From Eledone cirrhosa (Eukaryota): 64,000 nt of DNA. Below, one piece after another: positions 1,516 through 53,750 of the stretch; the stretch's first letter is position 1, and every line of letters begins with the position of its first letter. The translations under genes and the position numbers were made by a program. The stretch spans positions 286,254,001 through 286,318,000 of the forward strand of contig OZ024743.1 of assembly GCA_964016885.1 (NCBI GenBank), in the 5' to 3' direction. The notes below the pieces were generated by a model that worked only from the letters and a program-made list of their open reading frames with translations, made no database searches and was not told the origin of the DNA.

Positions 1516-1550
1516 GTTTAAAATAGAGTGGAAAAGATGGGAAAGACCAC

Positions 1551-2671
1551 TTACCGTACTTTTGGTAGAGGAGGGATGGTTTTTACATCCCTTTTCACTT
1601 GATCGTCTGGTGAAGGGACCGTTGAATCGTGCACTCCTGGTTGGTTTGGATTAGCATCTCAATGGAGGAGCCGACCCAATCTTCTCTTACTTTTTTCTGT
1701 ACTTGCAGTACAGTTGTTTTGTCCTCGATTCCGACGAGGACAGACGCGGCCAGCCAAGAAGGGGTCATTCCGGGGGGGGGGCGTGGGTCAGTTTGACCCT
1801 CACAATTTTTTGCCCGCAGTAGGAGGGCACCAACACCATTTCCTCGCTCCTTAGGGTCACTACTGATTGGGCCTTTGCCTCCTGGGGTGTGGCAAAAAGT
1901 ACGTCTACGGTGGCGTATTTTTTGCCTCGGGTGATGTGCGTTTTCCTCTGCCACACAGACCCCAAGGCTTTTTGTATTTGGGCCTCTGTGGCTCTTTCCA
2001 CCCTACGGGATTTTGTACTTACTGTACGGTACGTGACCGTACAGTGCTCTTGGGTTTCGAAAAAATTTTTCCGCTGCCTTGCAGATTGCTCGGTGTCCGT
2101 TCTTTGTCACCATCTTCTTCGCTTCCTCTAATTCCTCATTTGTTATGAGGATTGTTTCCAAGTTTTTCGCAATACCTGCAAATGAGATTGGTTTTTCTCT
2201 GCTGTTGTTGTTGTCGTCAGAGCTGCTGGTACTTTTGTTGTTGCTGCAGGTACTACGACTACTGCCTCCGCCGCTGTTGCTGTGGTTGTTGTTGGTGTTG
2301 CTGCTGCTAATGCTGTTGTTGTTTATGCTGCTGGTGATGCTGTTGCGGCTGCTACTGTTGTTTTCATTGTCACTGTTGCTGTTGTTATTACGGCTGCTAC
2401 TGCTATTATTCCTGACGTCAGACGAATGAACTGGGTTTTCGTATTTCCCGCACACCTGTTTCGTCGCTGTCGTCGTCGTCGTGGAGAAACCTTGCACGCT
2501 TTGCACGAGACTTTTCTTTTCTTTCGTCGCTTGCGAAAGAGAAGGGAGGGAGAGAGACACATTTAAAGAAGGGAGGGAGAGAGACAATCTTCTCTCTGCT
2601 GTAGTGATGATTGAGGAAGAAGAAGACGGAATGAGTGGGAGTGACGTATGAAATTTCTTTTTCGTAGCCAT
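1551..2671 (-). pseudogene. ORF1 of family A copy 1, frameshifted and internally deleted
   Basis: MATKKKFHTS start; homopolymer frameshifts near 2060 and 1772-1781; junction at 1630/1631 lacks the segment equal to 16606-17584. Confidence 0.9.
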
Positions 2672-2886
2672 GTTGTTTTTTGTTTAAAATGAAATTTTGG
2701 GTACAAAACCCCAATAACTGGTTATTTAACCCCGAAGGGCCAAATAACGGACAGAAAGATCCCTCTCACGAGGAGGAGGGTGTCTTTATCAACAATTTGG
2801 TTCAAGTTTTAAACAATTTACAATTGTTTTAACGGTTAAAAATTACTATACCTTACAGAGCCGAGCCTCCGTCAACCATGGCATTC

Positions 2887-2904: not shown

Positions 2905-3180
2905 GATTTCATTTATTGGCCACAAGGGCCGACATATAGGGGACAATACAAAAGACTGGGACAGTGGAGTTTTACAGAAAAATCGAGTAAACAATATGAA
3001 TAAAGAAAGTAACAATAACAAAGTAACAATAAAGTAACAAGAAAATTACAACAAGAAAAAATTCCCCAATAGGGGGGGATGACCACCTAGGGTTCGCTCA
3101 GGTACCCCACCAGTCCTGAACGACCCGACGCTTCGAGAGCACCCTGGAAGGGCACCCCTCTCCTCTTCAAATTTACCTAC

Positions 3181-6100
3181 CTACAGCCGCATGACTAGAG
3201 TAGGCCCACTCACACAGGCCATTCTCGCCACATTCACCCACCTTTCAGCAAATGTACTGGGGGGCAGCACTTCTCTCTCCACCCTCATCTTCCTTTCCAA
3301 GTGAAACTTGAAAAAGTTGATGAGGGATTGGCCGAAGAGAAAAGTGTCTGTCTTCAGTCCTTTCAACCTCCTCCACCATACAACCTCTTTCGCTACTGCC
3401 ACCAGACAGAGGAAAATTGCCTGCTCTTCCTGGCCAAAAGAAGGCGGCGGGTCGATCTTCACTATGGACTCGGCCGATAGCCGGATCTGTTCTACACGCG
3501 ACAACAGCTGTTCAACATAACTCCACAAGTCAGTAATGCACGGACACTGGACGAGTGCGTGCAGAACGGTTTCGTCGCTCTGCGCGCATCTCGGACAGGT
3601 CCGTCTGACAGCACTTCCGTGCCTGTAGAGCTTATGTCGAACCGGCAGTGTCCCCCGGTAGCACTGCCAAGCGAGGGATTTTTGGAAATTATCCATCGTC
3701 TTGGTTTGAAAGACCTCCGGTAGAGACTGGTTAGTTCGACTTCGTTGACTCCCAGGGCCTCTCCCAGTGCGTCGTCGCACTTGCCCACCACTAATCCTCT
3801 ATAGAACTCGAGAGTGGAAGTTCCACTGACCGCATTGCCCGCCTGGTAGAGGGCAGTGAGTGCCTGGCAACATTCCAGATGCCAGTCACCCAGTCTCGGT
3901 CTCTTCTTGACCCAAGACTGCAGCTCAGTCAAAGAAATGATCTGCGGAAAGGCCCGTCTGATAAACGGCGACCACACCTGTTCACCGTTGAGGCAGAATA
4001 TCTGGAGATGCCGCAGCCTCAGCGCGTGCCTGCGCATCATTAGCCACCGCATGCCCAGCCCTCCACGCAGAGGGTGCTGGCAGCGGATGGACCGCCTCAC
4101 CAGCGGAACCTGACCCCTCCACAAGAATTTGAAGAGGAGCCGCTCCAAGATGGCGAGGTGCGAACGGGGGCAAGGGACGACGGTCAGACGGTAGTAGATG
4201 ACGGACGCGATGTACGCGTTCGCCACCTCCGCCCGACCTTTCAGTGATAGCTTCATCCCAGCCCATTTCTGGGTGAGACTGATTACCCTGCCCGTCAGCT
4301 CGTCCCAATTCTTATCCACCTGGAGGTCTGGCCCGAACCAAACCCCGAGCAACTTTACCGGTCCGTCCGTCCAGCGCCTAACGACGCTGTTGGACGGCAT
4401 GGACTTGCCTCTCCAGGTGCCGAGTTGCAAGCCTACTGACTTTTCCGGGTTAAGTTTTGCTCCCGTCAACCTTTCATATTCCTCCAATAAGTTGCCGACC
4501 ACCTCGATTTCTGAGGTGTCCGACACCATCGCGGTGATGTCGTCCGCATAAGCCGACACAGCCTTTCCGCGTCCCGGTTCGAGCGGGATGCCCTGCAACA
4601 GCTCCAGCTTCCGCAGTAAAGGCTCGAGAGTCAATACGTACAGAAGGGAGGAGAGAGGGCACCCTTGACGGACCGATCGGGAGACCTGAAACGGTTCCGA
4701 GAGGTGGCCAATAATTTTGACCATCGAGCAGGTGCCGCTGTGCATTGCAGCGATCCAGCTTCTGAAGACGGGGCCGAAGCCAGCCGCCCTGAGAACAGCC
4801 TCAGGGTACCGATGGTCGACCCTATCGAATGCTTTCGATTGATCTAAATTGATCAAAGCCCCACCGAAGCCAGGTTTACACCCTACCCTCTCTATGATGT
4901 ATCGCATTAGGTGGAGGTTGTCGTGTATGGACCTGGTTGGGATTGCGCAAGTTTGAGCCTCCCCAACCAAATCCCCGACGACAAGCGCCAACCTCTTCGC
5001 TAACACCCTGGCCAAAATCTTAAACTCTGTGTTGAGCAGAGTTATGGGCCTGAAATTGTCTAATGTGTCCCTCTTGTTCTCGTCTTTCCTTATCAGCGTC
5101 ACTACGCCCCGGCTCACAGAACTGGGAATACTCCCGTTTTGCTGCCAGTTGCAGTAGAGGGCTTCGAGGAGATTGGAGAACAAGTCTGGCATATTTACGT
5201 AAAGCTCGTAGGGCAGACCATCCAAACCGGGTGACTTGCGCCTCATGCAGCCTACAAGGGCATCCTGAATCTCGGCTGAAGTAATTGGCCTTTCGCAGCG
5301 CCCAGCGTCAGCCGTCGAGAGTTGCGGCAAGCCATCGAGGTAAGGACTGAAGTCCGCCACCATCTCTGACCCGCCACTTCCCCCGAACAACCGAGCAAAA
5401 TGTTGGCGAAAGGCCTCACACATCCTCTTGGAATCGCTCAGCTCGTGCCCGTCTCTGTCCGTCAAAGACCGAATCGTGGTTTTATTACCACGCTGCGCCT
5501 CTGCCACGCGTGCCATCAAACAGCTTTGGTTCCCTCGTTTCTCAGAGCACGCGCCTTAGCTCTGACAATGCAACCTTCGTGTTTCGCATTGAAGAAATGG
5601 TCTAATGCCATTCTCGCCGCAAGCACATCAGTTGCAATGCCACTACCAATAGCCTCGTCTAACTTATCTACCAACTCCCCCTCCTTTCTATTTTTCTCTA
5701 ATGCTACTTCTTTGCTAAACTCCATCGACATTACTCTAATCTCTCTTTTGAGAGCCCTCCACCATCTATTTTTGACGATCCCCCCTGTCAACTTTTTCTT
5801 AACTAAATTGTTGACCTGGTCCCTGTAAGCCTTACGTGCCGGAAATGACATGTTTAGCTTCCAGTAACCAGGTCCTAACCTACGCGTCTTATCTAGGTCG
5901 ACCATACAGATCACAAACTTGTGATCTGAATAGGCGACCGTTTTAAAACGTGGACAGCTTACACTATTTCTGTCTATTTTCCTAATGAATATCCTGTCTA
6001 TATACGATCTAGATGACTCTATGCGGTTAGCCCAGGTCCACACTGGCGCATTAGGGAAATCTAGTCGGTACTTGTCAGACAGTTGGAACTGGCTGATCAG

Positions 6101-6593
6101 TCTCTTGAGGCTTTTGCAGCCCCCGCTCCTATCAGATACTCCCACACAGTCCCAGCGTGCGTCTAAAATGCCGTTCCAGTCCCCCGCTAACAGTAAAGGG
6201 CGAGACGTACCCAGAAAGGCTTCCAGGCGTCTAAAGAAGTCCTGCCCCAGTAGGAGCATAGACGGCCAGCAGTCTAAAGGCACCACCTTCATTATTGTTC
6301 ACGTCCAAGACCACCAACTTACCGTCCGGGTCCCGGAAGATCGACCTTACCTCGAGATCCAGGCCTTTCCTAAACAGCACTGCCACCCCGCCTCCCATTC
6401 CCGGCTGGCTAACAGATGCAAAGATCTGATAGTCGTCGAAAATGGGGGCTAGTGCGCGCGTGTCGGAAATCCTGGTCTCGCTGACTGCAATTACATCCAT
6501 TTCTATAGACCTGAGGTCGTTGAGCAGGTGACCCTGCTTCCAGGACGATCCCAGGCCTCGAACATTTAAACATCCTACTCTTAATACGGCCAT
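3181..6593 (-). pseudogene. Family B ORF2 (APE-RT-CCHC), split by frameshifts
   Basis: ORF pieces 6231-6593, 5516-6292, 3492-5519, 3181-3780 carry AGDWN, YSDH, QGCPLS, YADD, CPRC..H..C. Confidence 0.93.
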
Positions 6594-6624
6594 GTTGGCA
6601 GGTTAAACAGAGAGAGAGGAAGGT

Positions 6625-8588
6625 TTACTTACCTTCCGGGCTCTTGTGAAGGTCGGGTTGTTCGACCTCCATAGTTAGTGGGGTTTCTTTTGGGAACCCC
6701 TTTAAAAGTCTTGAAGTGGGTTTTACGTTCGGGGTTCCCACGTCCCGAGGAAAGCTATCTCGTATTTCTTTGAATATGTCGAGCGACATTCGCACCAGAA
6801 CCAAATCTTCCGGTACGCGAAATGTGCTCGATTTAAAAATTTTCCCCTCTTTTTGTATATTTTCACTTCGTGCTACGAGGGCCACCAGTTCCTTGTTGGC
6901 CCTCCTGACGAGCACGAAGTTTTGTATGTTTTGTTGGTGTGATTTTATTTGTTTGCGTGGCTGTGGTGGTGATGGTTTTGGTGGTGTTGTTTCGGTTGTA
7001 TCTGTGTTTGTTGTGAGTGCGGTGTCGGTGGTTTCAGATGTTTGTGTGTATATTTGTTCTTGCGTCTGTTTCGGTTGTTTGCGTTTGGGGGATTCTGGTG
7101 GTGTTGATGTTGGTGTTATTGGAGAGATGTTTGCGTGGGTGGTGTCTGCGTTTTTTTATTGTGGGTGCTTTTGTGCTTTGTTGAGTTTTTTTTTTCTTTT
7201 TGTGTTTCCTTTTTTGTATTTTGGGGGATTTGGGATTTCCCTCATCTTCACTACTGGTAGATGAGGGGTCTGTGTCTGTAAGTGTGTTTGTATGTATGTT
7301 TAAGGTTTTATTGGTGTGTGTATTTTGGTGGGGAGGGGGAATTTGACAGCTTTCCTCGTTTCCCCCCTGGGTGGTCAATGTTGGTGGTGGTTTTTCTATT
7401 GGTGTTGTTGTTGGTGGTTTTGCCGGTGCAGGTGTTGGTTGTGGTCCTCGCCCCCGGCGTCGGCAGCAGTGGAGCCTTTCGACCGCTTGTCTCTTTCAGC
7501 AGTTGAGGGCAGAAAGCTCGCAAATGGGTTTTTCCCCCACAAACAAAACACTGCGGCCTTTTGCCTTCGGTCATAATGTGAATGACAGTCCCATTCTGAA
7601 GTCGGATATGGTCTGGGATTGTCTTCACATTCTCGGGCCTGATCTGGAGAAGGATCTCCAGGTCAACCCCGAACCAGTCCTCTCTGGCCGTTCTGGTCAC
7701 TTCTATAGGGACTGTATCCGTCCCCCTCCACAATCACACATCCCAGAAGCCACCACATGTCAAGTCCTGGTGGGATTCTGGGAATGCGGAGACGGGCCGT
7801 TCTTTTTCCCATGTGGGAGGGGTACATTATGACCTTGCTGGTTTTGCAAGGAGTCATGGCGTGTTTCATCGCGAGGGCTTCTGACTTGAACAACACCGAA
7901 ATCGTGCCGTACTGTCTACCCCTCTCTATGTACTCGGTGTCTTCTCTGATGCACCTCAGCGCGACTTCGATATCTTCTTGTGGGATTAACGCTACCCTTT
8001 TGGTTTGTGCTGAGATGCATCTATAATGCACCGTTTTGCGCTCCACTGCCTCAATAGCTTCTACCGGGACAGTTAAGTTGGCCCAAGTTTGCTCTTGCTT
8101 GATGAGCTTCCATGCCTGGGCCAACTTTTCATCTTTGTTTGAGAGGTCCATGTTGAAGCATGGCCTCTTTTTTGCTGCTGCCGCAGCGAAAGTGGTCTTG
8201 TTTTCGTTGGGGGTGTTGTTGACGTTGTTCTTGTTGGTGTTGTTGTTAGCACTGTCGCTGTTATCATTGTTGTCTTTGTTGCCACCGTTGTTCTCGGTGC
8301 AGTTGGTATTGTTGCTGTTGGTGTTGTCGCTATTTGTTTTCATGTTAGTGGTGTTGATATTGTTGTATTTGTTATTTTTTTTTTGTTATCTGTATTTTCG
8401 TTGTCGCTGTTACTGTCATTTTTTTCAAAATTAGAGTTCTTATTGGTATCATTGGTGTCTTTGTTTACCTTGTTTGTGGTGGTGTTTGTGTTATCAATGT
8501 GTGTTAATTTCGCTGTAGCGCTCCTCTCAACTTCTACGTCGTTGTCGCACGACAGCCGACATATCGCTGGAAGGCGTGGCTCAGCCAT
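6625..8588 (-). pseudogene. Family B ORF1 (Asn-rich N-terminus, CCHC zinc knuckle), frameshifted
   Basis: Pieces 8340-8645, 7663-8343, 7308-7733 (CFVCGGKTHLRAFC), 7034-7378, 6625-6915; homologous to family A ORF1. Confidence 0.85.
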
Positions 8589-8792
8589 GTTTTTTTTCTT
8601 CGTAAATTTTTTAACATGTAAAAAAAATTCAAATATTTGGGCCAAAAGGCCTAAATATTATACTTTCCGCTTCACGGGGCAAAGTCTAAGGGCTTATATC
8701 CCATACACAACAAGAAATATTTAACAACAAATAATTTAAACAGGCAAATAAAGCGACTTACTGTGAGCGAGCAAAATACGTCCGCTTAGACC

Positions 8793-8860
<68 letters not shown>
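8793..8860. repeat. (AAT)n spacer/target
   Basis: Read directly; head-to-head junction between B and C. Confidence 0.98.
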
Positions 8861-8861
<1 letters not shown>

Positions 8862-12809: not shown

Positions 12810-13070
12810 TTTCTTTATTAACCACAAGGGTTCACATAAAGTAGACATTAAGGACAGTGCAGGACAATGCAGGACGGTACGAATGGGCATTTCTGCGTGT
12901 AAAAAAAACAAAAACAGAGGATGTAACAAAAATAACAATGAAAATAACAATGAAAAATTCCCCAATAGGGGGGAGACTTCGGAGGGACATTTGTGGAGAA
13001 AGCCCAGTAAAAAGCCACAATGACCCTGACCACCAAGGCAAGTGCCCTCTCCCAGTTTTCCACCTTTAGT

Positions 13071-16000
13071 TTACAGATATATACTCAGAGTCGGCCCATT
13101 CACTCGGGCCATTCTTGCTTCTCTTACCCATCTTTCAACAAAATGCTGGGAAGAGAGCACTTCCTTCTCTACTCTGATTTTCCTTTTCAAATGAAATTTG
13201 AAAAAGTCAATCAGAGCATCACCGAAGAGGTAAGTGCTCGTCTTCAGCCCTTTCAAACGTGTCCACCATACTATCTCTTTCGCCATGGCCACCAGACAGA
13301 TAAAAACTGCCTGCCCTTCCCGGCTAAAGGAGGAGGGCGGGGCAATCCTCACGATAGACTCAGATGATAGCTGGATCCGTCCTAAACGCGACAGCAGGTG
13401 TTCGACATAAACCCACAAGTCAGCAATTTTCGGACACTGGACGAGTGCGTGCAGGACGGTTTCGTCGCCCTGCGCGCATCTCGGACATGCCCGGCTGACG
13501 GCACCTCCATGCCTGTAGAGTTTATCCCGAACTGGCAAGGCTCCTCGGTAGCACTGCCAGGCCAGAGATTTCTGGAAGTTGTCCATAGGCCCTGGCCCGA
13601 AAGTTCTTCCGAAGAGATTGGCTAGTTGATTTTCGTCGACGCCTAGAGTTTCCCCAAGTACGTCGTCGCTCTTCCCCTCCACTAATCCTCTATAGAACGC
13701 CGAGGTGGAGTTTCCACCGATCACATTGCCCGATTGGTCGAGGGCTGTGAGCGCCTGAAGACATTCCAGTCTCCAGGCGCTCCCTCTCGGTCTTCGCTTG
13801 ACCCAGGACTGCAGCTCCGTCAAGGAAACGAGCTGGGGAAAAACGCGTCTAGCAAACGGCGACCACACCTGATCACCGTCGAGGAAGAGGTGGAGATGTC
13901 GTAGCCTGAGCGCGTGCCTGCGCATCATCAGCCACGGCATGCCCAGCCCTCCACGTAGCGGGTGTTGACAACAGATGGACCGCCTGACCATCGGAGCACG
14001 TCCCTTCCACAAAAAGCGAAAGAGCAAACGCTCCAGCGCAGTCAGGCGAGGCTTAGGACAAGGTACGACGGTTAGGCGGTAGCAGATGACAGACGCGATG
14101 TACGCGTTAGCCACCTCCGCTCGACCTTTCAGGGATAGCTTCCTCTCCGCCCATTTCTGGGTGAGAGAAGCCACCCTGCTCGTCACCTCGTCCCAGTTTT
14201 TGTCCGTCTGGAGGTCCGGACCGAACCAGACCCCTAGCAATTTAACCGGTCCGTCCGTCCAGCGCCCGACGACGCTGTTGGACGGCATGGACCTGCCTCT
14301 CCAGGTGCCGAGCTGCAGGCCCACTGACTTTTCCTGGTTGATCATTGCTCCTGTCACCGCTTCGTATTCTCTTAGTGTAGTGCCGATCGCCTCGATGTGT
14401 TTGGCGTTCGACACCACTACGGTGACATCGTCCGCATATGCTGACACGGATCTTCCGCATCCTAGTTCGCGCGGGACTCCCCTCAACGTCTCCAGTTTGT
14501 GCAGTAATGGCTCGAGCGTCAATACGTACAAGAGGGACGAGAGGGGACATCCTTGGCGGACCGAGCGCATGATGTTGAACGGTTCCGACAGGTGACCGTT
14601 CACTCTCACCACAGAGCAGATGTCGCTGTGCATGGCAGCGATCCAGCCTCTGAAGACGGGCCCAAAGCCAGCCGCCCTCAGGACTGCCGCTAGGTAACGA
14701 TGGTCGACCCTATCGAAAGCTTTCGACTGATCTAAATTGATCAAGGACCCACCCGTGCCAGGTTCCCTAGCTACCCTCTCTACGATGTATCGCATGAGGT
14801 GGAGGTTGTCGTGGATGGATCTGTCGGGAATGGCGCATGTCTGCGCCTCTCCCACCAGACCACCAACGACAAGCGCCAACCTCTTTGCTAGCACCTTGGC
14901 CAAAATCTTAAACTCTGTGTTTAGCAGAGTTATGGGCCGGAAATTTTCTATGTTATCCCCCTTGTTCGGATCCTTTCTCAGCAGTGCCACCGCACCTCGG
15001 CTCACAGAACTGGGAATTCTCCCGTTCTGTTGCCAGTTGCAGTAGACGTCCGCCAAGAGGCCTCCGAACAAGTCTGGCATCTGTACGTAAAGTTCATAGG
15101 GCAGACCATCCAAACCAGGCGATTTACCCCTTGTGCAGCCAGTCATTGCCTCCCGTACTTCAGCGGCTGTTATCGGCTTTTCGCAACACCTCGCCTCAGT
15201 GGCCGAGAGCCGCGGCAGTCCGTCGAGGTAGACACTAAAGTCCATCCCTCTACCCGGCCCCCCGCTGCCCCCGAACAGCTGAGCGAAGTGTCGCTGAAAA
15301 GCTTCACACATTTGCCCGGGATCGAGTAGCATGCGCCCGTCGTGGTCCACCAAAGACCGGATCGTGGCTTTGTTGCCACGACGCGCCTCCGCCACTCGGG
15401 CCCATTGAACGGCTTTTGTCCCCTCGTGTCTGAGAGCACGCACCCTAGCTCTGACAACGCAGCCTTCGTGCTTTGCATTGAAGAATTGGTCAAGGGCCAA
15501 TTTCGCCGCAAGCACGTCGGTCGCAATGCCTTTGCTAAGCGCCTCGTCTAATTTTCTAACTAGTTCTCCCTCTGCTCTATTTTTCTCTATTGCTAAAGCC
15601 TTACTAAACCTAATCGATTCTATTCTAATCGCTCTTTTCAGAGCAAACCACCACTTGTTGTTGACGATGGCCCCCGTCAACGCCCGCTTAACTAGTTCGC
15701 TAATCCGGTCTCTGTAGGCCTTGCGCGCTGGTAAGGACGCGTTTAGCTTCCAGTAGCCGGGTCCTCGTCTATGAAGCCTATCTAAGTCAAGCACACAGAT
15801 CACGAATTTGTGGTCCGTGTAGCTGACTATCTTGAATTGTGGACAGCCTATGCTAGACCTATCTATTTCCCTACAAAATACTCTATCTAGATATGATCTG
15901 GATGACCCTATGCGGTTTGTCCAAGTCCACATTGGCACATTCGGGAAATCCAATCGGTACCTGTCAGACAGTTCAAAACGCCTGAGCAGGTTGGTGAGGC

Positions 16001-16490
16001 TCTTGCACCCTCCACCCCTATCCGCTAATCCCACACAGTCCCAGCGTGCATCTAAGATCCCGTTCCAGTCGCCCACTAACACTAAAGAGCGCGACGTTCC
16101 AAGAAAGGTCTCCAGACGCCGGAAGAAATCAGGCCGCCCTGCTCCTGTCGGGGCATAGACGGCCACTAGCCTGAAAGCTTGCCCGTCTCCGCTGGTCACG
16201 TCCAGCACCACCAGCTTACCCTCTGGGTCCAGGAAGATGGCCCGTATGGCGAGATCCAAACCTCTCCGAAAAAGCACAGCAACTCCTCCACCCGATCCAG
16301 GACGGCTGGGAGATGCGTACACATCGTAGCCGCCGAAGATCGGTGCGAAGGCCCGTGCTTCGGAGATTCTGGTCTCGCTGATGGCCACTACATCTATGTT
16401 TAGTGACCTGAGGTCGTTGAGCAGGTGACCCTGCTTCCATGACGACCCCAAGCCACGCGCATTTATGCTGCCTATTCTGAGTGAGGTCAT
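13071..16490 (-). CDS. ORF2, 1139 aa: APE endonuclease, reverse transcriptase, C-terminal CCHC
   Basis: Uninterrupted ORF; VGDWN, YTDH, KAFDRV, QGCPLS, YADD, CPRCAQGDETVLHALVQC. Confidence 0.97.
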   Translation of the reverse strand: MTSLRIGSINARGLGSSWKQGHLLNDLRSLNIDVVAISETRISEARAFAPIFGGYDVYASPSRPGSGGGVAVLFRRGLDLAIRAIFLDPEGKLVVLDVTSGDGQAFRLVAVYAPTGAGRPDFFRRLETFLGTSRSLVLVGDWNGILDARWDCVGLADRGGGCKSLTNLLRRFELSDRYRLDFPNVPMWTWTNRIGSSRSYLDRVFCREIDRSSIGCPQFKIVSYTDHKFVICVLDLDRLHRRGPGYWKLNASLPARKAYRDRISELVKRALTGAIVNNKWWFALKRAIRIESIRFSKALAIEKNRAEGELVRKLDEALSKGIATDVLAAKLALDQFFNAKHEGCVVRARVRALRHEGTKAVQWARVAEARRGNKATIRSLVDHDGRMLLDPGQMCEAFQRHFAQLFGGSGGPGRGMDFSVYLDGLPRLSATEARCCEKPITAAEVREAMTGCTRGKSPGLDGLPYELYVQMPDLFGGLLADVYCNWQQNGRIPSSVSRGAVALLRKDPNKGDNIENFRPITLLNTEFKILAKVLAKRLALVVGGLVGEAQTCAIPDRSIHDNLHLMRYIVERVAREPGTGGSLINLDQSKAFDRVDHRYLAAVLRAAGFGPVFRGWIAAMHSDICSVVRVNGHLSEPFNIMRSVRQGCPLSSLLYVLTLEPLLHKLETLRGVPRELGCGRSVSAYADDVTVVVSNAKHIEAIGTTLREYEAVTGAMINQEKSVGLQLGTWRGRSMPSNSVVGRWTDGPVKLLGVWFGPDLQTDKNWDEVTSRVASLTQKWAERKLSLKGRAEVANAYIASVICYRLTVVPCPKPRLTALERLLFRFLWKGRAPMVRRSICCQHPLRGGLGMPWLMMRRHALRLRHLHLFLDGDQVWSPFARRVFPQLVSLTELQSWVKRRPRGSAWRLECLQALTALDQSGNVIGGNSTSAFYRGLVEGKSDDVLGETLGVDENQLANLFGRTFGPGPMDNFQKSLAWQCYRGALPVRDKLYRHGGAVSRACPRCAQGDETVLHALVQCPKIADLWVYVEHLLSRLGRIQLSSESIVRIAPPSSFSREGQAVFICLVAMAKEIVWWTRLKGLKTSTYLFGDALIDFFKFHLKRKIRVEKEVLSSQHFVERWVREARMARVNGPTLSIYL

Positions 16491-16525
16491 GTTTAAAATA
16501 GAGTGGAAAAGATGGGAAAGACCAC

Positions 16526-18623
16526 TTACCGTACTTTTGGTAGAGGAGGGATGGTTTTTACATCCCTTTTCACTTGATCGTCTGGTGAAGGGACCGTTGA
16601 ATCGTCCCTTCGGCTGGTCGTCGGCTCTTCTAAGAGTATGTCTGAGTATACTCTTCGATTGATGGTTCCTCCTAGGTCCCTGAAATCACCAACTGCGTTG
16701 GGGAATTTCGTTTTAATGTTTGTGTATTGTTTCTGTGCTATTTTTAGCAGTCTTATGTTAGTTGGCGTTTTGATTGGTGCTGGTATTATGTAGTCCTGTT
16801 GTGAAATGTCTGTGTGTTCAATTATGTAAGTCATTAGTTTCTTGTTGTGTGTATTTATTGCCGTGCATTTGTTTTTCTGGGGGTGGGGTGTGGTTCTGCT
16901 ATTTTCTTGTCGTTGTTGCTGGGTGTGTGTGTTTTGTTGTTGTGTTTGCGATGTTGGTGCTTGTGGTGGTGGTGTTGAAGGTGTTGTTGGCGGTGGGGTT
17001 GTCGCCGGTGGTGATGGTGGCGCTAGTGTGGGTGGTGATGGTGTTGGTGTTGTTGCTGCTGTGGGTCTCTTTGCAGTAGACTTTACCCTTTTCTCATTTC
17101 TTTCCTCCCTTTTCAAAGGCGACGATGCGCTGCTTCTGCGTTTGTGCCTTCTTACGACCTTTTGCCATCTCTCTCCCACCTCACACTCCATGTCTGATTC
17201 TGTGAGGTCGGGGAGGGGTACCAGCTCCACTCTTTCACTTGTTGTTGTTGGTGATGTTTGCACTGGAGTCTCTGTTGCAGCTGCATTTGGTATTGCTGTT
17301 GTTGTTGTTAGTATTTCCCCTGCTGCTGCTGTTTTTGATTTCCGTGGAGTGGGTATGGGTGCCACGGGCCTATCGTTCCTGGTTGCCGCTTGTCCTGTTG
17401 CTGGTAGCCGTGGAGCCGGATTCGGAAGGAGGGGGGTTTTCTCCTTTCTCAGGGTCTTCTCATTGCAGAAGGCCCTGAGGTGAGTCTTCGATCCACAGCG
17501 AAAGCATTTCGGGCGTTTGCCCTCAACACTTATGGGCAGTTGAGTGCCGTTATCGAAGTCTATCACATCCGGGATAGCTTCGATGCACTCCTGGTTGGTT
17601 TGGATTAGCATCTCAATGGAGGAGCCGACCCAATCTTCTCTTACTTTTTTCTGTACTTGCAGTACAGTTGTTTTGTCCTCGATTCCGACGAGGACAGACG
17701 CGGCCAGCCAAGAAGGGGTCATTCCGGGGGGGGACGTGGGTCAGTTTGACCCTCACAATTTTTTGCCCACAGTAGGAGGGCACCAACACCATTTCCTCGC
17801 TCCTTAGGGTCACTACTGATTGGGCCTTTGCCTCCTGGGGTGTGGCAAAAAGTACGTCTACGGTGGCATATTTTTTGCCTCGGGTGATGTGCGTTTTCCG
17901 CTGCCACACAGACCCCAAGGCTTTTTGTATTTGGGCCTCTGTGGCTCTTTCCACCCTACGGGATTTTGTACTTACTGTACGGTACGTGACCGTACAGTGC
18001 TCTTGGGTTTCGAAAATTTTTTCCGCTGCCTTGCAGATTGCTCGGTGTCCGTTCTTTGTCACCATCTTCTTCGCTTCCTCTAATTCCTCATTTGTTATGA
18101 GGATTGTTTCCAAGTTTTTCGCAATACCTGCAAATGAGATTGGTTTTTCTCTGCTGTTGTTGTTGTCGTCAGAGCTGCTGGTACTTTTGTTGTTGCTGCA
18201 GGTACTACGACTACTGCCTCCGCCGCTGTTGCTGTGGTTGTTGTTGGTGTTGCTGCTGCTAATGCTGTTGTTGTTTATGCTGCTGGTGATGCTGTTGCGG
18301 CTGCTACTGTTGTTTTCATTGTCACTGTTGCTGTTGTTATTACGGCTGCTACTGCTATTATTCCTGACGTCAGACGAATGAACTGGGTTTTCGTATTTCC
18401 CGCACACCTGTTTCGTCGCTGTCGTCGTCGTCGTGGAGAAACCTTGCACGCTTTGCACGAGACTTTTCTTTTCTTTCGTCGCTTGCGAAAGAGAAGGGAG
18501 GGAGAGAGACACATTTAAAGAAGGGAGGGAGAGAGACAATCTTCTCTCTGCTGTAGTGATGATTGAGGAAGAAGAAGACGGAATGAGTGGGAGTGACGTA
18601 TGAAATTTCTTTTTCGTAGCCAT
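16526..18623 (-). pseudogene. ORF1 with a single +1 base in a G run
   Basis: G8 at 17726-17733 versus G7 in the intact copy; the two halves join to the 698-aa protein; CFRCGSKTHLRAFC knuckle. Confidence 0.9.

Positions 18624-23565: not shown

Positions 23566-23598
<33 letters not shown>
23566..23598. repeat. (AAT)11 spacer/target
   Basis: Read directly. Confidence 0.97.
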
Positions 23599-23600: not shown

Positions 23601-25979
23601 TTTCTTTATTGGCCACAAGGGCTGACATCAAGAAAAACATCACAGACGGAACAGGACGGTACGATGTGGGTTTTGTGCGTGTAAATATTTTTATTATTTA
23701 TATAAGAAAAGAAAAAAAACATAAAATATATATATATATAAACGATAAAATGAAAATTGAAACAATGAAAAATTCCCCAATAGGGAGGAAACCTCCGAGG
23801 GCTACTCGTGGCGAAAACCACAAAAAAGACCACGGCCACCCTGACCACCAGGGCAAGCGCCCTCTCTCAATTTTTCCATTTCTCAAACTACAGACGTATA
23901 TTCAGAGTGGTCTCGTTCACTCGGACCATTCTCGCTACATTCACCCACCTTTCAACAAACTTGCTAGAAAGCAGCACTTGCCTCTCCACCCTGATTTTCC
24001 TCTTCAAGTGAAACTTGAAAAAGTTAATCAGGGATTCGCCGAAGAGGAAAGTGTTTGTCTTTAATCCTTTTAACCTTGTCCACCACACAATCTGTTTCGC
24101 CATGGCCACCAGGCAGATGAAAACCGCCTGCCCTTCCTCCTCAAAGGACGACGGCGAGACCATCTGCACAATAGACTCAGTCGACAACCAGATCAGTCCC
24201 ACACGTGACAGCAACTGTTCGACATATCTCCACAAGTCAGCAATGCTCGGGCACTGAACGAGTGCGTGCACAACGGTTTCGTCGCTATTCGCGCATCTCG
24301 GACAGGCTCGGCTGACGGCACTTCCGTGCCTGTAGAGCTTATCTCGAACCGGCAGCGCTCCCCGGTAGCACTGCCAGGCCAGAGATTTTTGGAAGTTATC
24401 CATAGGCCCCGGGTTGAAAGTTCTCCGGAAGAGAGCAAGCAGCTGATCTTCTTCGACGCCCAGGATCTCTCCGAGAACGTCGTCGCTCTTCCCCTCCACT
24501 AGCCCTCTATAGAACGCCGAGGTGGATGTTCCACCGATACTGGTGCCCAACTGGGAGAGGGCAGTGAGCGCCTGGAGACATTCCAGTTTCCAAGCGCTAT
24601 CCCTCGGTCTTTTTCTGACCCAGGACTGCAGCTCCGTCAAGGAGACGAGCTGTGGGAAAATGTGCCTGGCGAACGGCGACCACACCCGTTCACCATCAAG
24701 GAAGCACCAGAGATGTCGCAGCCTCAGCGCATGTTTGCGCATCATCAGCCATGGCATGCTCAGTCCTCCACGCAACGGGTGTTGACAGCAGCTGGATCGT
24801 CTGACCATGGGAGCGCGTCCCTTCCACAAAAAGCGGAAGAGGAGGCGCTCCATTTTGGTGAGAGTTGGGCTGGAGCAAGGGACGACGGTGAGGCGGTAGC
24901 AGATGACGGATGCGATGTACGCATTCGCCACCTCCGCCCGGCCTTTCAGGGACAGCTTCCTCTCAGCCCATTTCTGGGTGAGGGAGGCCACTCTGCTCGT
25001 CACCTCGTTCCAGTTTTTCTCCATCTGGAGGTCCGGTCCGAACCAGACCCCGAGCAATTTACCTGGTCCGTCCGTCCAACGCCCCACGACGCTGTCGGAC
25101 GGCATGGACTTGCCTCTCCAGGTGCCTAGCTGCAAGCCCACCGACTTTTCCTGGTTTATCTTTGCTCCTGTCACCGTTTCGTATTCCTTGAGAGCGGTGC
25201 CGAGCATCTGGACGTGTCTGGTGCTCGACACCACCACGGTGACGTCGTCAGCGTAAGCCGACTCGTATTTCCTGCATCCTCGTTCTCGTGGGACGCCCCT
25301 CATCGCCTCCAGATTGTGCAGTAACGGCTCGAGAGCCAATACGTACAAGAGGGACGAGAGGGGACAACCCTGGCGGACTGAGCGCATGATGCTGAACGGC
25401 TGCGACAGGTGACCGTTCACCCTCACAACCGAGCAGATGTCGCTGTACATTGCTGCGATCCAACGCCTGAAAACGGGCCCGAAACCGGCTGCCTCGAGGA
25501 CCGCCGCCAGGTACCGATGGTCGACCCTATCGAATGCTTTGTATTGATCCAAGTTGATCAGGGCCCCACCCTTTCCAGGTTCCTGGCGAACGGCGACCAC
25601 ACCCGTTCACCATCAAGGAAGCACCAGAGATGTCGCAGCCTCAGCGCATGTTTATGTATTGATAAATGAGAAAGGGTCACTTACGTTGTTCGTGTTGTGA
25701 AGGGACAGTAGAACCGTCCCTTTCGCTGGTCATGGGTGTTTCCAAGAGGATGTCAGTGTATATCCTCTTGGTAACCGTCCCTCTGAAGTCTCCAACTGCG
25801 TTGGGGAATTTTTGTTTTAAAGGTTTGTATTGTTCTAATGAGATTTCGATGATACTTATGTTTGACGGGAGAGTTCTTGGTGTTGGTGGGGTGTAGTAAT
25901 TTTTTTCCGTGATGTCTGTGTGCTGCTTTATATATTTTATGAGCTCTTTTTTTGCTATGTTTATGGCTGTGTATTTTTT
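23599..25979 (-). mobile_element. Tx1 family D, 5'-truncated in ORF1 and internally rearranged
   Basis: RT C-half ORF 23888-25600 (YADD, CPRC); ORF1 C-terminus (KFPNAVGDFR...EQRK*) at about 25677-25979; APE missing. Confidence 0.9.
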
Positions 25980-30000: not shown

Positions 30001-33000
30001 GGGTCCTCGTCTATGAAGCCTATCTAAGTCAAGCACACAGATCACGAATTTGTGGTCCGTGTAGCTGACTATCTTGAATTGTGGACAGCCTATGCTAGAC
30101 CTATCTATTTCCCTATAAAATACTCTATCTAGATATGATCTGGATGACCCTATGCGATTTGTCTAAGTCCACATTGGCACATTCGGGAAATCCAATCGGT
30201 ACCTGTCAGACAGTTCAAAACGCCTGAGCAGGTTGGTGAGGCTCTTGCACCCTCCACCCTTAACCGCTAATCCCACACAGTCCCAGCGTGCATCTAAGAT
30301 CCCGTTCCAGTCGCCCACTAACACTAAAGAGTGGGACGTTCCAAGAAAGGTCTCCAGACGCCGGAAGAAATCAGGCCGCCCTGCTCCTGTCGGGGCATAG
30401 ACGGCCACTAGCCTGAAAGCTTGCCCGTCTCCGCTGGTCACGTCCAGCACCACCAACTTACCATCTAGGTTCAGGAAGATGGCCCGTATGGCGAGATCCA
30501 AACCTCTCCGAAAAAGCACAGCAACTCCTCCCCCCGATCCAGGACGGCTGGGAATGCGTACACATCGTAGCCACCGAAGATCGGTGCGAAGGCCCGTGCT
30601 TCGGAGATTCTGGTCTCGCTGATGACCACTATATCTATGTTTAGTGACCTGAGGTCGTTGAGCAGGTGACCCTGCTTCCATGACGACCCCAAGCCACGCG
30701 CATTTATGCTGCCTATTCTGAGTGAGGTCATGTTTAAAATAGAGTGGAAAAGATGGGAAAGACCACTTACCGTACTTTTCGTAGAGGAAGGATGGTTTCT
30801 CCATCCCTTTTCACTTGATCGTCTGGTGAAGGGACCGTTGAATCGTCCTTTCGGCTGGTCGTCGGCACTTCTATGAGTATGTCCGAATATACTCTCCGGT
30901 TGACAGTCCCTCCTAGGTCTCTGAAATCACCAACTGCGTTGGGGAATTTCGTTTTAATGTTTGTGTATTGTTTCTGTGCTATTTTTAGCAGTCTTATGTT
31001 CGTTGGCGTTTTGATTGGTGCTGGTATTATGTAGTCGTTCTGTGAAATGTCTGTGTTCAATTATGTAAGTCATTAGTTACTTGTTGTGTATTTATTGCCG
31101 TGCATTTGTTTTTCTGGAGGTGGGGTGTGGTTCTGCTATTTTCTTGTTGTTTTTGCTGGGTGTGTGTGTTTTGTTGTTGTGTTTGCGATTTTGGTGCTTG
31201 TGGTGGTGGTGTTGAAGGTGTTGTTGTTGTTGGCGGTGGGGTTGTCGCCGGTGGTGATGGTGGTGCTAGTGTGGGTGGTGATTGGTGTTGGTGGTGTTGC
31301 TGCTGTGAGTCTCTTTGCAGTAGCCTTTACCCTTTTTTCATTTCTTTCCTCCCTTTTCGAAGGCGACGATGCGCTGCTTCTGCGTTTGTGCCTTCTTACG
31401 ACCTTTTGCCATCCCTCTCCCACCTCACACTCCATGTCTGATTCTGTGAGGTCGGGGAGGGTTACCAGCTCCACTCTTTCACTTGTTGTTGTTGGTGATG
31501 TTTGCAGTGGAGTCTCTGTTGCAGCTGCATTTGGTATTACTGTTGTTGTTGTTAATACTTCCACTGCTGCTGCTGTTCTTGATTTCCGTGGCATGGGTAT
31601 GGGTGCCACGGATCTATCGTTCCTGGTTGCCGCTTGTCCTATTGGTGGTAGCCGTGGAGCTGGTTTCGGAAGGAGGGGGGTTTTCTCCTTTCTCAGGGTC
31701 TTCTCGTTGCAGAAGGCCCTGAGGTGAGCCTTCGATCCACAGCGAAAGCATTTCGGGCGTTTTCCCTCAACACTTATGGGCAGTTGAGTGCCGTTATCGA
31801 AGTCTATCACATCCGGGATAGCTTCGATGCACTCCTGGTTGGTTTGGATTAATATCTCAATGGAGGTGCCGACCCAATCTTCTCTTACCTTTTTCTGTAC
31901 TTGCAGTACAGTTGTTTTGTCCTCGATTCCGACGAGCACAGACGCGGCCAGCCAAGAAGGGGGGGGGGGGTCAGTTTGACCCTCACAATTTTTTGCCCGC
32001 AGTATGAGGGCACCAACACCATTTCCTCGCTCCTTAGGGTCACTAAGGATTGAGCCTTTGCCTCCTGGGGTGTGGCAAAAAGCACGTCTACGGTGGCATA
32101 TTTCTTGCCTCGGGTGATGTGCGTTTCCCGCTGCCACACAGACCCTAAGGCTTTTTGTATTTGAGCCTCTGTGGCTCTTTCAACTCTACGGGATTTTGTG
32201 CTTACTGTACGGTACGTGACCGTACAGTGCTGTTGGGTTTCGAAAAACTTTTCGGCTGCCTTGCAGATTGCTTGGTGTCCGGTTTTCGTCACCATCTTCT
32301 TCGCTTCCTCTAATTCCTCATTTGTTATGAGGATGGTTTCCAGGTTCTTTGCGATACCTGCAAAGGAGATTGGTTTTTCTTTGCTGCTGCTGTTGTTGTT
32401 GCTGTTGTCGTCAGAGCTGCTGTTACTTTTGTTGTTGCTGCAGGTACTACGACTACTGCCGCCGCCGCTGTTGCTGTGGTTGTTATTGTTGTTGCTGCTG
32501 CTGCTAATGCTCTTGTTGTTTATGCTGCTGCTGATGCTGTTGCGGCTGCTACTGTTGTTTTCCTTGTCACTGTTGCTGCTTCTGCTGTTATTACGGCTGC
32601 TACAGCTATTATTCATGACGTCAGACGAATGAAATTGGTTTTCGTATTTCCCGCACACCTTTTTCGTCGTTGTCGTCGTGGAGAAATGTTGCACGCTTTC
32701 TACGTGATTTTTCTTTACTGGCGTCGCTTGCGAAAGAGAAGGGGGGGAGAGAGACACATTTAGAGAAGGGAGGGAGAGAGACAATCTTCTCTCTGATGTA
32801 GTGACAATTGAGGAAGAAGAAGACGGAATGAGTGGCAGTGACCTATGAAAATTCTTTTTCGTAGCCATGTTTTTTTCTTTGTTTAAAATAAATATTGGAC
32901 ACAAACCCCAATAAGCGGTTATTTAACCCCGAAGGGCCAAATAACGGGCAGAAAGGCCCCTCTCACAAGGAGGAGGGTGTTTTTGTCTACAATTTGGTTA

Positions 33001-47940: not shown

Positions 47941-48199
47941 TTTCTTTATTAACCACAAGGGTTTACATAAAGTAGACATTAAGGACAGTGCAGGACAATG
48001 CAGGACGGTACAAATGGGCATTTCTGCGTGTAAAAAACAAAAACAGAGGATGTAACAAAAATAACAATGAAAATAACAATGAAAAATTCCCCAATAGGGG
48101 GGAGACTTCGGAGGGACATTTGTGGAGAAAGCCCAGTAAAGAGCCACAATGACCCTGACCACCAAGGCAAGTGCCCTCTCCCAGTTTTCCACCTTTAGT

Positions 48200-51619: not shown

Positions 51620-51653
51620 GTTTAAATAGAGTGGAAAAGATGGGAAAGACCAC

Positions 51654-53750
51654 TTACCGTACTTTTGGTAGAGGAGGGATGGTTTTTACATCCCTTTTCA
51701 CTTGATCGTCTGGTGAAGGGACCGTTGAATCGTCCCTTCGGCTGGTCGTCGGCTCTTCTAAGAGAATGTCTGAATATACTCTTCGATTGATGGTTCCTCC
51801 TAGGTCCCTGAAATCACCAACTGCGTTGGGGAATTTCGTTTTAATGTTTGTGTATTGTTTCTGTGCTATTTTTAGCAGTCTTATGTTAGTTGGCGTTTTG
51901 ATTGGTGCTGGTATTATGTAGTCCTGTTGTGAAATGTCTGTGTGTTCAATTATGTAAGTCATTAGTTTCTTGTTGTGTGTGTTTATTGCCGTGCATTTGT
52001 TTTTCTGGGTGTGGGGTGTGGTTCTGCTATTTTCTTGTCGTTGTTGCTGGGTGTGTGTGTTTTGTTGTTGTGTTTGCGATGTTGGTGCTTGTGGTGGTGG
52101 TGTTGAAGGTGTTGTTGGCGGTGGGGTTGTCGCCGGTGGTGATGGTGGTGCTGGTGTGGGTGGTGATGGTGTTGGTGGTGTTGCTGCTGTGGGTCTCTTT
52201 GCAGTAGACTTTACCCTTTTCTCATTTCTTTCCTCCCTTTTCAAAGGCGACGATGCGCTGCTTCTGCGTTTGTGCCTTCTTGCGACCTTTTGCCATCCCT
52301 CTCCCACCTCACACTCCATGTCTGATTCTGTAAGGTCGGGGAGGGGTACCAGCTCCACTCTTTCACTTGTTGTTGTTGGTGATGTTTGCACTGGAGTCTC
52401 TGTTGCAGCTGCATTTGGTATTGCTGTTGTTGTTGTTAATATTTCCACTGCTGCTGCTGTCTTTGATTTCCGTGGAGTGGGTATGGGTGCCACGGACCTA
52501 TCGTTCCTGGTTGCCGCTTGTCCTGTTGCTGGTAGCCGTGGAGCCGGATTCGGAAGGAGGGGGGTTTTCTCCTTTCTCAGGGTCTTCTCGTTGCAGAAGG
52601 CCCTGAGGTGAGTCTTCGATCCACAGCGAAAGCATTTCGGGCGTTTGCCCTCAACACTTATGGGCAGTTGAGTGCCGTTATCGAAGTCTATCACATCCGG
52701 GATAGCTTCGATGCACTCCTGGTTGGTTTGGATTAGCATCTCAATGGAGGAGCCGACCCAATCTTCTCTTACTTTTTTCTGTACTTGCATTACAGTTGTT
52801 TTGTCCTCGATTCCGACGAGGACAGACGCGGCCAGCCAAGAAGGGGTCATTCCGGGGGGGACGTGGGTCAGTTTGACCCTCACAATTTTTTGCCCGCAGT
52901 AGGAGGGCACCAACACCATTTCCTCGCTCCTTAGGGTCACTACTGATTGGGCCTTTGCCTCCTGGGGTGTGGCAAAAAGTACGTCTACGGTGGCGTATTT
53001 TTTGCCTCGGGTGATGTGCGTTTTCCTCTGCCACACAGACCCCAAGGCTTTTTGTATTTGGGCCTCTGTGGCTCTTTCCACCCTACGGGATTTTGTACTT
53101 ACTGTACGGTACGTGACCGTACAGTGCTCTTGGGTTTCGAAAAAATTTTTCGCTGCCTTGCAGATTGCTCGGTGTCCGTTCTTTGTCACCATCTTCTTCG
53201 CTTCCTCTAATTCCTCATTTGTTATGAGGATTGTTTCCAAGTTTTTCGCAATACCTGCAAATGAGATTGGTTTTTCTCTGCTGTTGTTGTTGTCGTCAGA
53301 GCTGCTGGTACTTTTGTTGTTGCTGCAGGTACTACGACTACTGCCTCCGCCGCTGTTGCTGTGGTTGTTGTTGGTGTTGCTGCTGCTAATGCTGTTGTTG
53401 TTTATGCTGCTGGTGATGCTGTTGCGGCTGCTACTGTTGTTTTCATTGTCACTGTTGCAGTTGTTATTACGGCTGCTACTGCTATTATTCCTGACGTCAG
53501 ACGAATGAACTGGGTTTTCGTATTTCCCGCACACCTGTTTCGTCGCTGTCGTCGTCGTCGTGGAGAAACCTTGCACGCTTTGCACGAGACTTTTCTTTTC
53601 TTTCGTCACTTGCGAAAGAGAAGGGAGGGAGAGAGACACATTTAAAGAAGGGAGGGAGAGAGACAATCTTCTCTCTGCTGTAGTGATGATTGAGGAAGAA
53701 GAAGACGGAATGAGTGGGAGTGACGTATGAAATTTCTTTTTCGTAGCCAT
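51654..53750 (-). CDS. ORF1, 698 aa nucleic-acid-binding protein
   Basis: Ser/Asn-rich N-terminus, CX2CX4HX4C knuckle, Pro/Thr-rich linker. Confidence 0.93.
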   Translation of the reverse strand: MATKKKFHTSLPLIPSSSSSIITTAERRLSLSLPSLNVSLSLPSLSQVTKEKKSLVQSVQGFSTTTTTATKQVCGKYENPVHSSDVRNNSSSSRNNNCNSDNENNSSSRNSITSSINNNSISSSNTNNNHSNSGGGSSRSTCSNNKSTSSSDDNNNSREKPISFAGIAKNLETILITNEELEEAKKMVTKNGHRAICKAAKNFFETQEHCTVTYRTVSTKSRRVERATEAQIQKALGSVWQRKTHITRGKKYATVDVLFATPQEAKAQSVVTLRSEEMVLVPSYCGQKIVRVKLTHVPPGMTPSWLAASVLVGIEDKTTVMQVQKKVREDWVGSSIEMLIQTNQECIEAIPDVIDFDNGTQLPISVEGKRPKCFRCGSKTHLRAFCNEKTLRKEKTPLLPNPAPRLPATGQAATRNDRSVAPIPTPRKSKTAAAVEILTTTTAIPNAAATETPVQTSPTTTSERVELVPLPDLTESDMECEVGEGWQKVARRHKRRSSASSPLKREERNEKRVKSTAKRPTAATPPTPSPPTPAPPSPPATTPPPTTPSTPPPQAPTSQTQQQNTHTQQQRQENSRTTPHTQKNKCTAINTHNKKLMTYIIEHTDISQQDYIIPAPIKTPTNIRLLKIAQKQYTNIKTKFPNAVGDFRDLGGTINRRVYSDILLEEPTTSRRDDSTVPSPDDQVKRDVKTIPPLPKVR

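What the first reader, a model, noticed from the sequence alone, without database searches (positions are those of the whole stretch)
6593..6632. A consensus 5' splice site (GTAAGT) overlaps the ORF1 stop codon in all four Tx1 families
Seen: every ORF1/ORF2 junction has GTAAGT on the element strand. Family A reads CG|GTAAGT (1549-1554, 16524-16529, 30765-30770, 51652-51657), B reads AG|GTAAGT (6627-6632), D reads AC|GTAAGT (25679-25684) and F reads AG|GTAAGT (58067-58072). It always lies 35-39 nt before the ORF2 ATG and is followed by a pyrimidine tract. The A, B and D linkers are otherwise unalike, and the motif sits in two different codon phases (xGG TAA GT versus xGT AAG TRA), so protein constraint does not explain it. 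A and F share their linker by descent, so there are three independent linkers. Established: GTAAGT is the U1 snRNA-complementary donor consensus. Inference: these LINEs regulate ORF1 versus ORF2 output by splicing or U1 binding. I know of no description of this for Tx1 elements.
Basis: partly seen in the sequence, partly recalled or inferred. Interest (0 to 1): 0.85.

Follow-up and report, generated by a model that had tools for sequence, protein, structure and literature searches.

The report
Splice donor clamping a LINE's ORF2
A large family of jumping genes (LINE retrotransposons), probably from an octopus-like animal, keeps a splice-start signal exactly where its first gene ends, inside a stretch predicted to pair with the RNA just behind its second gene; this likely lets it cut out the whole second gene to make extra first-gene protein, but no spliced RNA has been seen.

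Summary
The hexamer is at all 7 stated junctions and overlaps the ORF1 stop. G|GTAAGT or a one-base variant recurs in 11 of 13 sampled lineages, in two codon phases. It is the only 7-mer shared at the junction by seven divergent lineages and pairs with this genome's U1 5' end, so it is under selection.

Corrections: the linkers are homologous, not independent. The window's D copy is rearranged, so its 'ATG at 35 nt' is not ORF2's start. The distance ranges from 27 to 54 nt.

The pyrimidine tract is predicted to be one arm of a long-range helix with the first ~50 nt after the ORF2 stop, with some compensatory changes. In D, the B group and E, joining the donor to ORF2's terminal TAG leaves ORF1's length within one residue. 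This fails in H and J, and A, F and G lack that AG.

No spliced genomic copy was found beside more than 4,100 intact junctions, and no RNA data were available. Best reading: a donor-plus-helix switch for an ORF1-only mRNA (0.5); rival, U1 docking without splicing (0.25). The scan noted this before at other loci of this genome.

The parts
6627..6632 (-). Family B donor GTAAGT (AAG|GTAAGT), phase 1; ORF1 stop TAA at 6625-6627
6594..6632 (-). Family B ORF1-ORF2 linker (39 nt), 5' arm of the predicted helix; ORF2 ATG at 6591-6593
3181..6593 (-). Family B ORF2 (frameshifted copy), ending in TAG at 3181-3183, the candidate acceptor
3146..3180 (-). Family B 3' arm, purine-rich, complementary to the linker
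16524..16529 (-). Family A donor (ACG|GTAAGT), phase 2; ORF2 ATG at 16488-16490
13071..16490 (-). Family A intact ORF2, 1139 aa (endonuclease, RT, zinc finger), ending in TAA
13037..13064 (-). Family A 3' arm; pairs across the whole donor
12888..12900 (-). Candidate 3' UTR acceptor (U-rich tract then CAG) of the A/F/G/J group
51652..51657 (-). Family A donor of the full-length copy 47895-53989
51654..53750 (-). Family A intact ORF1, 698 aa, no Pfam match, stop inside the donor
48166..48193 (-). 3' arm of the copy 47895-53989
1549..1554 (-). Family A donor, copy running off the window start
30765..30770 (-). Family A donor, degenerate copy; its 3' arm at 27299-27326
25679..25684 (-). Family D donor in a rearranged copy (break about 20 nt downstream; no ORF2 start)
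23852..23890 (-). Family D ORF2 stop TAG (23888-23890) and 3' arm
58067..58072 (-). Family F donor (AAG|GTAAGT), phase 2; 3' arms at 55103-55130 and 54201-54228

Best explanation
The conserved G|GTAAGT at the ORF1 stop matches U1 snRNA and likely acts as a real 5' splice site that lets part of the element's transcripts lose the whole of ORF2 and become an ORF1-only mRNA, while a predicted long-range helix between the linker and the start of the 3' UTR would mask the splice sites and keep the rest full-length. Shown: conservation, U1 complementarity, two codon phases, and complementarity of the linker to the sequence behind the ORF2 stop. Inferred: U1 binds the donor while ORF2 is being transcribed; the 3' arm appears only 3.4 kb later, so splicing and helix formation compete and set the ORF1p:ORF2p ratio. 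The likely acceptor is ORF2's own TAG (D, B group, E; a CAG 7 nt earlier would serve H) or a U-rich CAG in the 3' UTR (A, F, G, J). The ORF1-only RNA makes no reverse transcriptase in cis and so would rarely be retrotransposed.
For: Donor conservation over 13 lineage representatives: G-1, T+2, A+3 and T+6 in 13 of 13; A+4 and G+5 in 12 of 13; G+1 in 11 of 13, the misses being single old copies of J and K (other J-like copies carry G+1). Four-fold identity between the deep groups is 0.51-0.59. Phase 2 in A, F, G, E, H and phase 1 in D, J, K and the B group. U1 duplex -8.1 to -12.3 kcal/mol in 12 of 12. Helix: -30 to -50 kcal/mol, z -2.0 to -6.9 against 300 shuffles in 10 of 10; the 3' arm is the best partner among about 1,180 windows of the element in 7 of 10; the best arm belongs to the linker's own group in 9 of 10. 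In the B group the consensus has 30 pairs, 4 with two-sided changes and 3 of 120 cells broken. The helix forms in the 3.2-3.8 kb minimum-energy fold in 5 of 9. ORF2 ends in TAG in D, B, B3, B1, B2, E, H and J. Joining the donor to it ends ORF1 at the same length or one residue shorter in D, B, B3, B1, B2 and E, through TAA, TAG or TGA stops that follow each lineage's phase, against 2 of 12 for the other phases of those six. A, F, G and most J copies, which fail that test, carry a 3' UTR CAG after a U-rich tract where D has CAC. Precedent: Ty1/copia Gag-only RNA (PMC5580714, abstract and section 8 read).
Against: No RNA evidence. No spliced retrocopy: A/F 0 for the 3' UTR acceptor and 0 of 15 deviant junctions against 3,156 intact; B group 0 for the TAG acceptor and 0 of 7 deviants against 1,020 intact; D 0; H 0 for the CAG acceptor; E not covered. 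The matched-stop pattern fails in H (4 of 5 copies give a tail of about 50 residues at the TAG) and J (about 12 residues), and A, F and G end in TAA; these include 5 of the window's 7 junctions. The rescue by other acceptors is post hoc. The TAG has no good pyrimidine tract (9-11 of 15) and no conserved branch point was seen. The helix is absent from the global fold in B, B2, H and J. The four B-group lineages are not independent. The compensatory arm for G's GTAATT donor was linked to a G linker in 2, an F linker in 3 and a B linker in 1 of the 6 informative copies among 20 fetched.
Confidence: 0.5

Rival explanations
1. The site docks U1 snRNP without being spliced. U1 shields the A-rich ORF1 and the long ORF2 from premature polyadenylation; the helix then displaces U1 once the 3' arm is transcribed, allowing 3' end formation and export of an RNA that would otherwise be held in the nucleus.
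For: The donor is universal while no acceptor is. No spliced copies. In A, F, D and J the 3' arm pairs across the whole donor like U1's 5' end. AATAAA lies within 600 nt upstream of the donor in 10 of 12 lineages, against a shuffle probability of 0.28-0.63 each. Precedents: foamy virus U1-plus-structure switch (PMC3694450, abstract read); an unspliced 5' splice-site motif blocks export (PMC4380460, start of abstract in a listing).
Against: It does not explain the phase-matched stops after ORF2's TAG in D, the B group and E, nor why the donor is pinned to the ORF1 stop. The upstream AATAAA sites are mostly at non-homologous places, two of the regions counted (B1, B3) are partly rearranged, and A has no AATAAA inside ORF2. 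In B, E and H the helix leaves GTAA in an internal loop.
Confidence: 0.25
2. The helix is a translation device: it joins ORF2's start to its stop and gates reinitiation after ORF1. The hexamer is a protein- or ribosome-read termination/reinitiation signal that only resembles a donor.
For: The predicted helix runs from the ORF1 stop to the ORF2 AUG and starts at the ORF2 stop in D, B, E and H. In SART1 an RNA structure affects ORF2 initiation (PMC3894237, passages read).
Against: The motif shifts against the stop codon (two phases), matches the U1 5' end at -2 to +6, and its variants (CAG|GTAATT, AGG|GTAGGT) keep U1 pairing. It may coexist with the best explanation.
Confidence: 0.13
3. A 41-73 nt micro-intron from the donor to an AG 14-19 nt inside ORF2 removes the ORF1 stop and the ORF2 ATG and yields an ORF1-ORF2 fusion.
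For: An in-phase AG exists near the ORF2 start in each lineage examined.
Against: Two adjacent AGs cover both phases and lie in conserved codons. A fused RNA would carry RT in cis and should leave intron-less copies: 0 for A, 0 for D, and the single B hit is a microhomology deletion without GT-AG ends. H's intron would be 41 nt.
Confidence: 0.05
4. The hexamer is a neutral leftover of common ancestry plus stop-codon constraint.
For: All lineages are one clade. Only 1 of 25 distant L1-like metagenome loci has a donor-like stop.
Against: Flanks and linker length have diverged (27-54 nt), synonymous sites are near saturation, the reading frame has slid over the motif, and it is the only shared 7-mer.
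Confidence: 0.03

Closest known systems
Ty1/copia subgenomic Gag RNA (Arabidopsis EVD; PMC5580714, abstract and section 8 read)
   Same: A conserved U1-type donor near the end of the structural gene sets structural versus catalytic protein output; U1 also suppresses premature termination.
   Different: LTR element; short intron coupled to a premature poly(A) site. Here a non-LTR element, the putative intron is all of ORF2 (3.4 kb), no conserved internal poly(A) site was found, and a long-range helix is predicted.
Foamy virus major splice donor / RNA-structure switch (PMC3694450, abstract read)
   Same: U1 binding at a donor suppresses polyadenylation and an alternative RNA fold blocks U1.
   Different: Retroviral LTRs with the donor next to the poly(A) site; here the donor is about 3.7 kb from the terminal AATAAA and the masking strand is 3.4 kb away.
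Human L1 splicing and SpIREs (PMC5860796, abstract read)
   Same: L1-like LINE with splice signals in its RNA.
   Different: Those events lie in the 5' UTR and ORF1, harm the element and leave retrocopies; here the donor is conserved across lineages at the ORF1 stop and no spliced retrocopy was found.
Tx1-clade target-specific LINEs (Kibi, Koshi, Keno; PMC4494074, passages read) and the L1-Tx1 families listed for Octopus vulgaris (PMC13282606, one table passage seen)
   Same: ORF1 plus endonuclease/RT/zinc-finger ORF2; insertion next to a microsatellite, here (ATT)n.
   Different: The passages seen mention no donor at ORF1's end ('splic' occurs 0 times in PMC13282606); clade placement was not tested here.
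SART1 translational coupling (PMC3894237, passages read)
   Same: RNA structure near the ORF1/ORF2 junction affects ORF2 output.
   Different: Overlapping UAAUG stop-start and a local structure; here a 27-54 nt linker and a long-range partner.

Membership tests
L1-like APE-type LINE | ORF1 followed by ORF2 with APE endonuclease, RT and C-terminal zinc finger | tested here: met
   Pfam PF03372, PF00078, PF13966; best solved-structure match human L1 ORF2p, E 1.3e-52, against R2 at 1.9e-21
Tx1 clade | Target-sequence preference | tested here: met
   10 of 10 A-type 5' ends in the contiguous blocks follow at least two ATT units; several of these are the tails of preceding copies; E and H end in other repeats
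Tx1 clade | RT phylogeny groups with named Tx1 elements | not tested
U2-type spliceosomal intron spanning ORF2 | 5' splice site complementary to U1 | tested here: met
U2-type spliceosomal intron spanning ORF2 | Conserved 3' splice site with pyrimidine tract and branch point | tested here: inconclusive
   TAG in 8 of 11 lineages with a known 3' end, tract 9-11 of 15; a different CAG in A, F, G, J
U2-type spliceosomal intron spanning ORF2 | Junction reads in RNA | not tested
Ty1/copia shGAG strategy | Splicing coupled to a premature internal poly(A) site in an LTR element | tested here: not met
   Non-LTR element; no poly(A) signal conserved inside ORF2 (none in A, B2, E, H). It may work like it but is not a member
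SpIRE-type spliced retrocopies | Genomic copies with exact splice junctions | tested here: not met

The most novel reading that the evidence does not exclude
An autonomous LINE clade encodes its entire reverse-transcriptase gene as a retained spliceosomal intron, bounded by the ORF1 stop and the ORF2 stop (or a 3' UTR site), and uses a covarying 3.4-kb-range RNA helix as a timer that evicts U1 and chooses between an ORF1-only mRNA and the full-length transposition template.
Probability: 0.4. Interest if true: 0.85.

Novelty: new variant of a known kind. Interest (0 to 1): 0.62.

Why it matters
LINEs need far more ORF1 protein than ORF2 protein (recalled knowledge), and how ORF2 is expressed from bicistronic RNA is called an open question in PMC3894237 (passages read; 'splic' occurs 0 times there). 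A conserved donor plus a long-range helix would be a splicing-level or U1-level answer, convergent with Ty1/copia and foamy viruses, in a clade with over 4,100 counted junctions in this genome. It gives exact junctions and exact base pairs to test. Thousands of strong donors could also splice into host genes.

Tried and rejected
RNA support: none obtained, so splicing is untested.

Spliced retrocopies: none. The pattern misses exons with G at +5 or +7, which searches covered for two named acceptors; one search covered A only; E, G and J were not searched.

Matched stop in H: my first H representative was atypical and passed; four further copies failed, so H is counted as a miss at the TAG.

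Local hairpin over the donor: beyond linker shuffles only in B (0 of 300) and H (7 of 300) among 12 lineages; rejected as a general feature.

Eight-lineage consensus helix: the alignment is unreliable (18 of 120 cells broken) and was not used.

Second GTAAG at ORF2 nt ~270: found in A, F, B, B1 only, changed in B2 and not found in D, E, H; protein-coded.

Distant relatives: two searches of the genome with distant endonuclease queries returned only this clade (30 of 30 loci each), so the 'very distant relative' of earlier notes was not found. Of 74 metagenome loci, 25 with an ORF2 start were examined; 1 (L273) has a donor-like ORF1 stop and only a -12.6 kcal/mol duplex, compatible with chance.

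ORF1 homolog search: no hit. Atlas: only generic RT/endonuclease clusters.

Literature: searches listed no paper describing a donor at the ORF1 stop or an ORF2-bracketing helix in a LINE (listings seen; most subscription journals and Repbase reports are not in the library; no supplements read).

Full report
Setting. The window lies in a 3.0-Gb genome (G000, contig C4). A homolog search hit an Octopus sinensis gene model, so the host is probably octopus-like; nothing more was worked out. The window holds seven minus-strand junctions of L1-like LINEs. Family A has an intact 698-aa ORF1 and a 1139-aa ORF2 with endonuclease, RT and zinc-finger domains, closest to human L1 ORF2p among solved structures. 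A-type 5' ends follow ATT repeats in 10 of 10 cases, which fits a microsatellite-targeting Tx1-type element (PMC4494074, passages). Clade placement was not tested.

Observation. GTAAGT is at all seven coordinates and overlaps the ORF1 stop in two phases. Three details are wrong. The window's D copy is rearranged about 20 nt after the donor, so its ATG is not ORF2's; intact D reads AAG|GTAAGT (25 of 30 loci) with the ATG at 40 nt. The distance is 27-54 nt over 13 lineages. The linkers share ancestry.

Is it selected? I sampled lineages by their ORF2 start, not by the motif. Over 13 representatives G-1, T+2, A+3 and T+6 are invariant, A+4 and G+5 hold in 12 and G+1 in 11; the two misses are single old copies. 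Copy sets agree: B 27 of 30, H 14 of 14, and G has CAG|GTAATT in 10 of 12. Four-fold sites are 0.51-0.59 identical between deep groups, and 64 of 239 are invariant across seven lineages. In those seven GGTAAGT is the only shared 7-mer at the junction, while the 3' UTRs share only AATAAA and ATTTTT. The phase is 2 in A, F, G, E, H and 1 in D, J, K and the B group, which needs at least two shifts on the ORF2 tree. This genome's U1 genes begin with the canonical 5' end, and 12 of 12 donors pair with it at -8.1 to -12.3 kcal/mol. The motif is under selection at the nucleotide level, most simply for U1.

The pyrimidine tract is a helix arm. Earlier notes of this scan on the same genome pointed to an RNA clamp and to an acceptor at the ORF2 stop; I tested both. 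The linker pairs with the first ~50 nt after the ORF2 stop at -30 to -50 kcal/mol (z -2.0 to -6.9, 10 of 10). That arm is the best partner in the whole element for 7 of 10 (not B1, H, G), and the best arm is from the linker's own group in 9 of 10. Four further copies gave z -2.2 to -3.4. Two-sided changes number 4 of 30 pairs in the B group, 2 of 19 in the A group and 1 of 27 in E/H. The helix appears in the minimum-energy fold of the whole downstream RNA in A, D, E, F and partly B1, and not in B, B2, H, J. In A, F, D and J it covers the donor; in B, E and H GTAA sits in an internal loop yet stays invariant, so pairing alone does not explain the motif. An arm variant that would compensate G's donor occurs 157 times, but among 20 fetched copies 14 had no ORF2 start in range, 2 had a G linker, 3 an F linker and 1 a B linker: weak support.

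Where would it splice? ORF2 ends in TAG in D, B, B3, B1, B2, E, H and J, and in TAA in A, F and G. Joining the donor to that TAG ends ORF1 at the same length or one residue shorter in D, B, B3, B1, B2 and E, by different stop codons that follow each lineage's phase; the other phases of these six give a stop within two codons in 2 of 12. My first H copy also passed but was atypical; 4 of 5 H copies and the J copies fail. That is three of five independent groups. H has a CAG 7 nt before the stop that would end ORF1 on ORF2's stop, and A, F, G and most J copies have a U-rich CAG in the 3' UTR where D has CAC. This looks like acceptor turnover but is post hoc. The TAG has a weak tract (9-11 of 15 pyrimidines).

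Direct evidence is lacking. No RNA reads were available. Beside 3,156 intact A/F junctions and 1,020 B-group junctions, no exactly spliced copy was found. Fifteen and seven deviant junctions were small indels, point changes, an inversion or a fragment. Named junctions gave 0, and one B hit is a microhomology deletion without GT-AG ends. This weighs strongly against a fusion-making micro-intron, whose RNA would carry RT in cis. It weighs little against an ORF2-less RNA, which would not (inference from the recalled cis preference of LINEs).

Mechanism. Most likely (0.5): U1 engages the donor co-transcriptionally; some transcripts lose ORF2 and supply ORF1p; in the rest the helix forms when the 3' arm emerges, masks the sites and yields the full-length template. 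The main rival (0.25) is U1 docking without splicing, with the helix evicting U1 before polyadenylation and export. It fits the universal donor, the variable acceptor, AATAAA within 600 nt upstream in 10 of 12 lineages, and the precedents in foamy virus (PMC3694450, abstract) and for nuclear retention by 5' splice-site motifs (PMC4380460, listing). A purely translational helix (0.13), a micro-intron fusion (0.05) and neutral inheritance (0.03) follow. The first two are not exclusive: EVD uses both (PMC5580714, section 8).

Range and novelty. The feature was seen only in this clade: distant queries returned no other clade in this genome, and 1 of 25 distant metagenome loci had a donor-like stop. 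Seven literature searches listed no description of it for a LINE; the library lacks most subscription journals and no supplements were read. It works like the Ty1/copia or foamy-virus strategies but is a member of neither: a new variant of a known kind. Interest 0.62: strong sequence evidence for selection and for a helix, no RNA proof. The scan has noted the same feature at other loci of this genome; those notes are not counted as support.

Noticed in passing
window 58116 region (family F copy) and L226-L231, L246-L265: Families are mosaics: F has an A-like linker and ORF2 with a different ORF1, switching about 45 nt before the donor; G 5' halves carry A/F-type 3' ends. Recombination or template switching between subfamilies looks common.
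   Followed up: partly
window 2872-2886, 18822-18836, 53951-53965: Elements insert head-to-tail into each other's (ATT)n tails, giving tandem arrays with about 6-kb spacing; similar runs are seen on C1.
   Followed up: partly
P0035 residues 41-101; window 6317-6322, 30456-30461, 57758-57763: An Octopus sinensis tectonic-3-like gene model includes a piece of this endonuclease that ends exactly at the second GGTAAG site at ORF2 nt ~270, suggesting that the model uses that internal donor. It is a gene model only.
   Followed up: partly
window 3176-3183 (B) and E/H 3' ends: ORF2's stop is itself donor-like in B, B3, E and H (AG|GTAGGT, AG|GTGAGA and similar), so a spliced junction would recreate a 5' splice site; not so in D, B1, B2.
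   Followed up: no
L273 (metagenome contig), about 74 nt before ORF2: A distant L1-like element has GGG|GTGAGT overlapping its ORF1 stop; 1 of 25 loci, possibly chance.
   Followed up: partly
window 8790-12080, 20922-23600, 44673-47086, 60231-64000 (+ strand): Plus-strand RT elements of other LINE types; several minus-strand copies sit at the same place in their 3' ends.
   Followed up: no
window 40242-41426 (- strand): 394-aa ORF with a GIY-YIG domain, probably a Penelope-like element.
   Followed up: no
G000:C1128 and C2:180.97-181.0 Mb: Tandem arrays of U1 snRNA genes with about 2.67-kb spacing.
   Followed up: no
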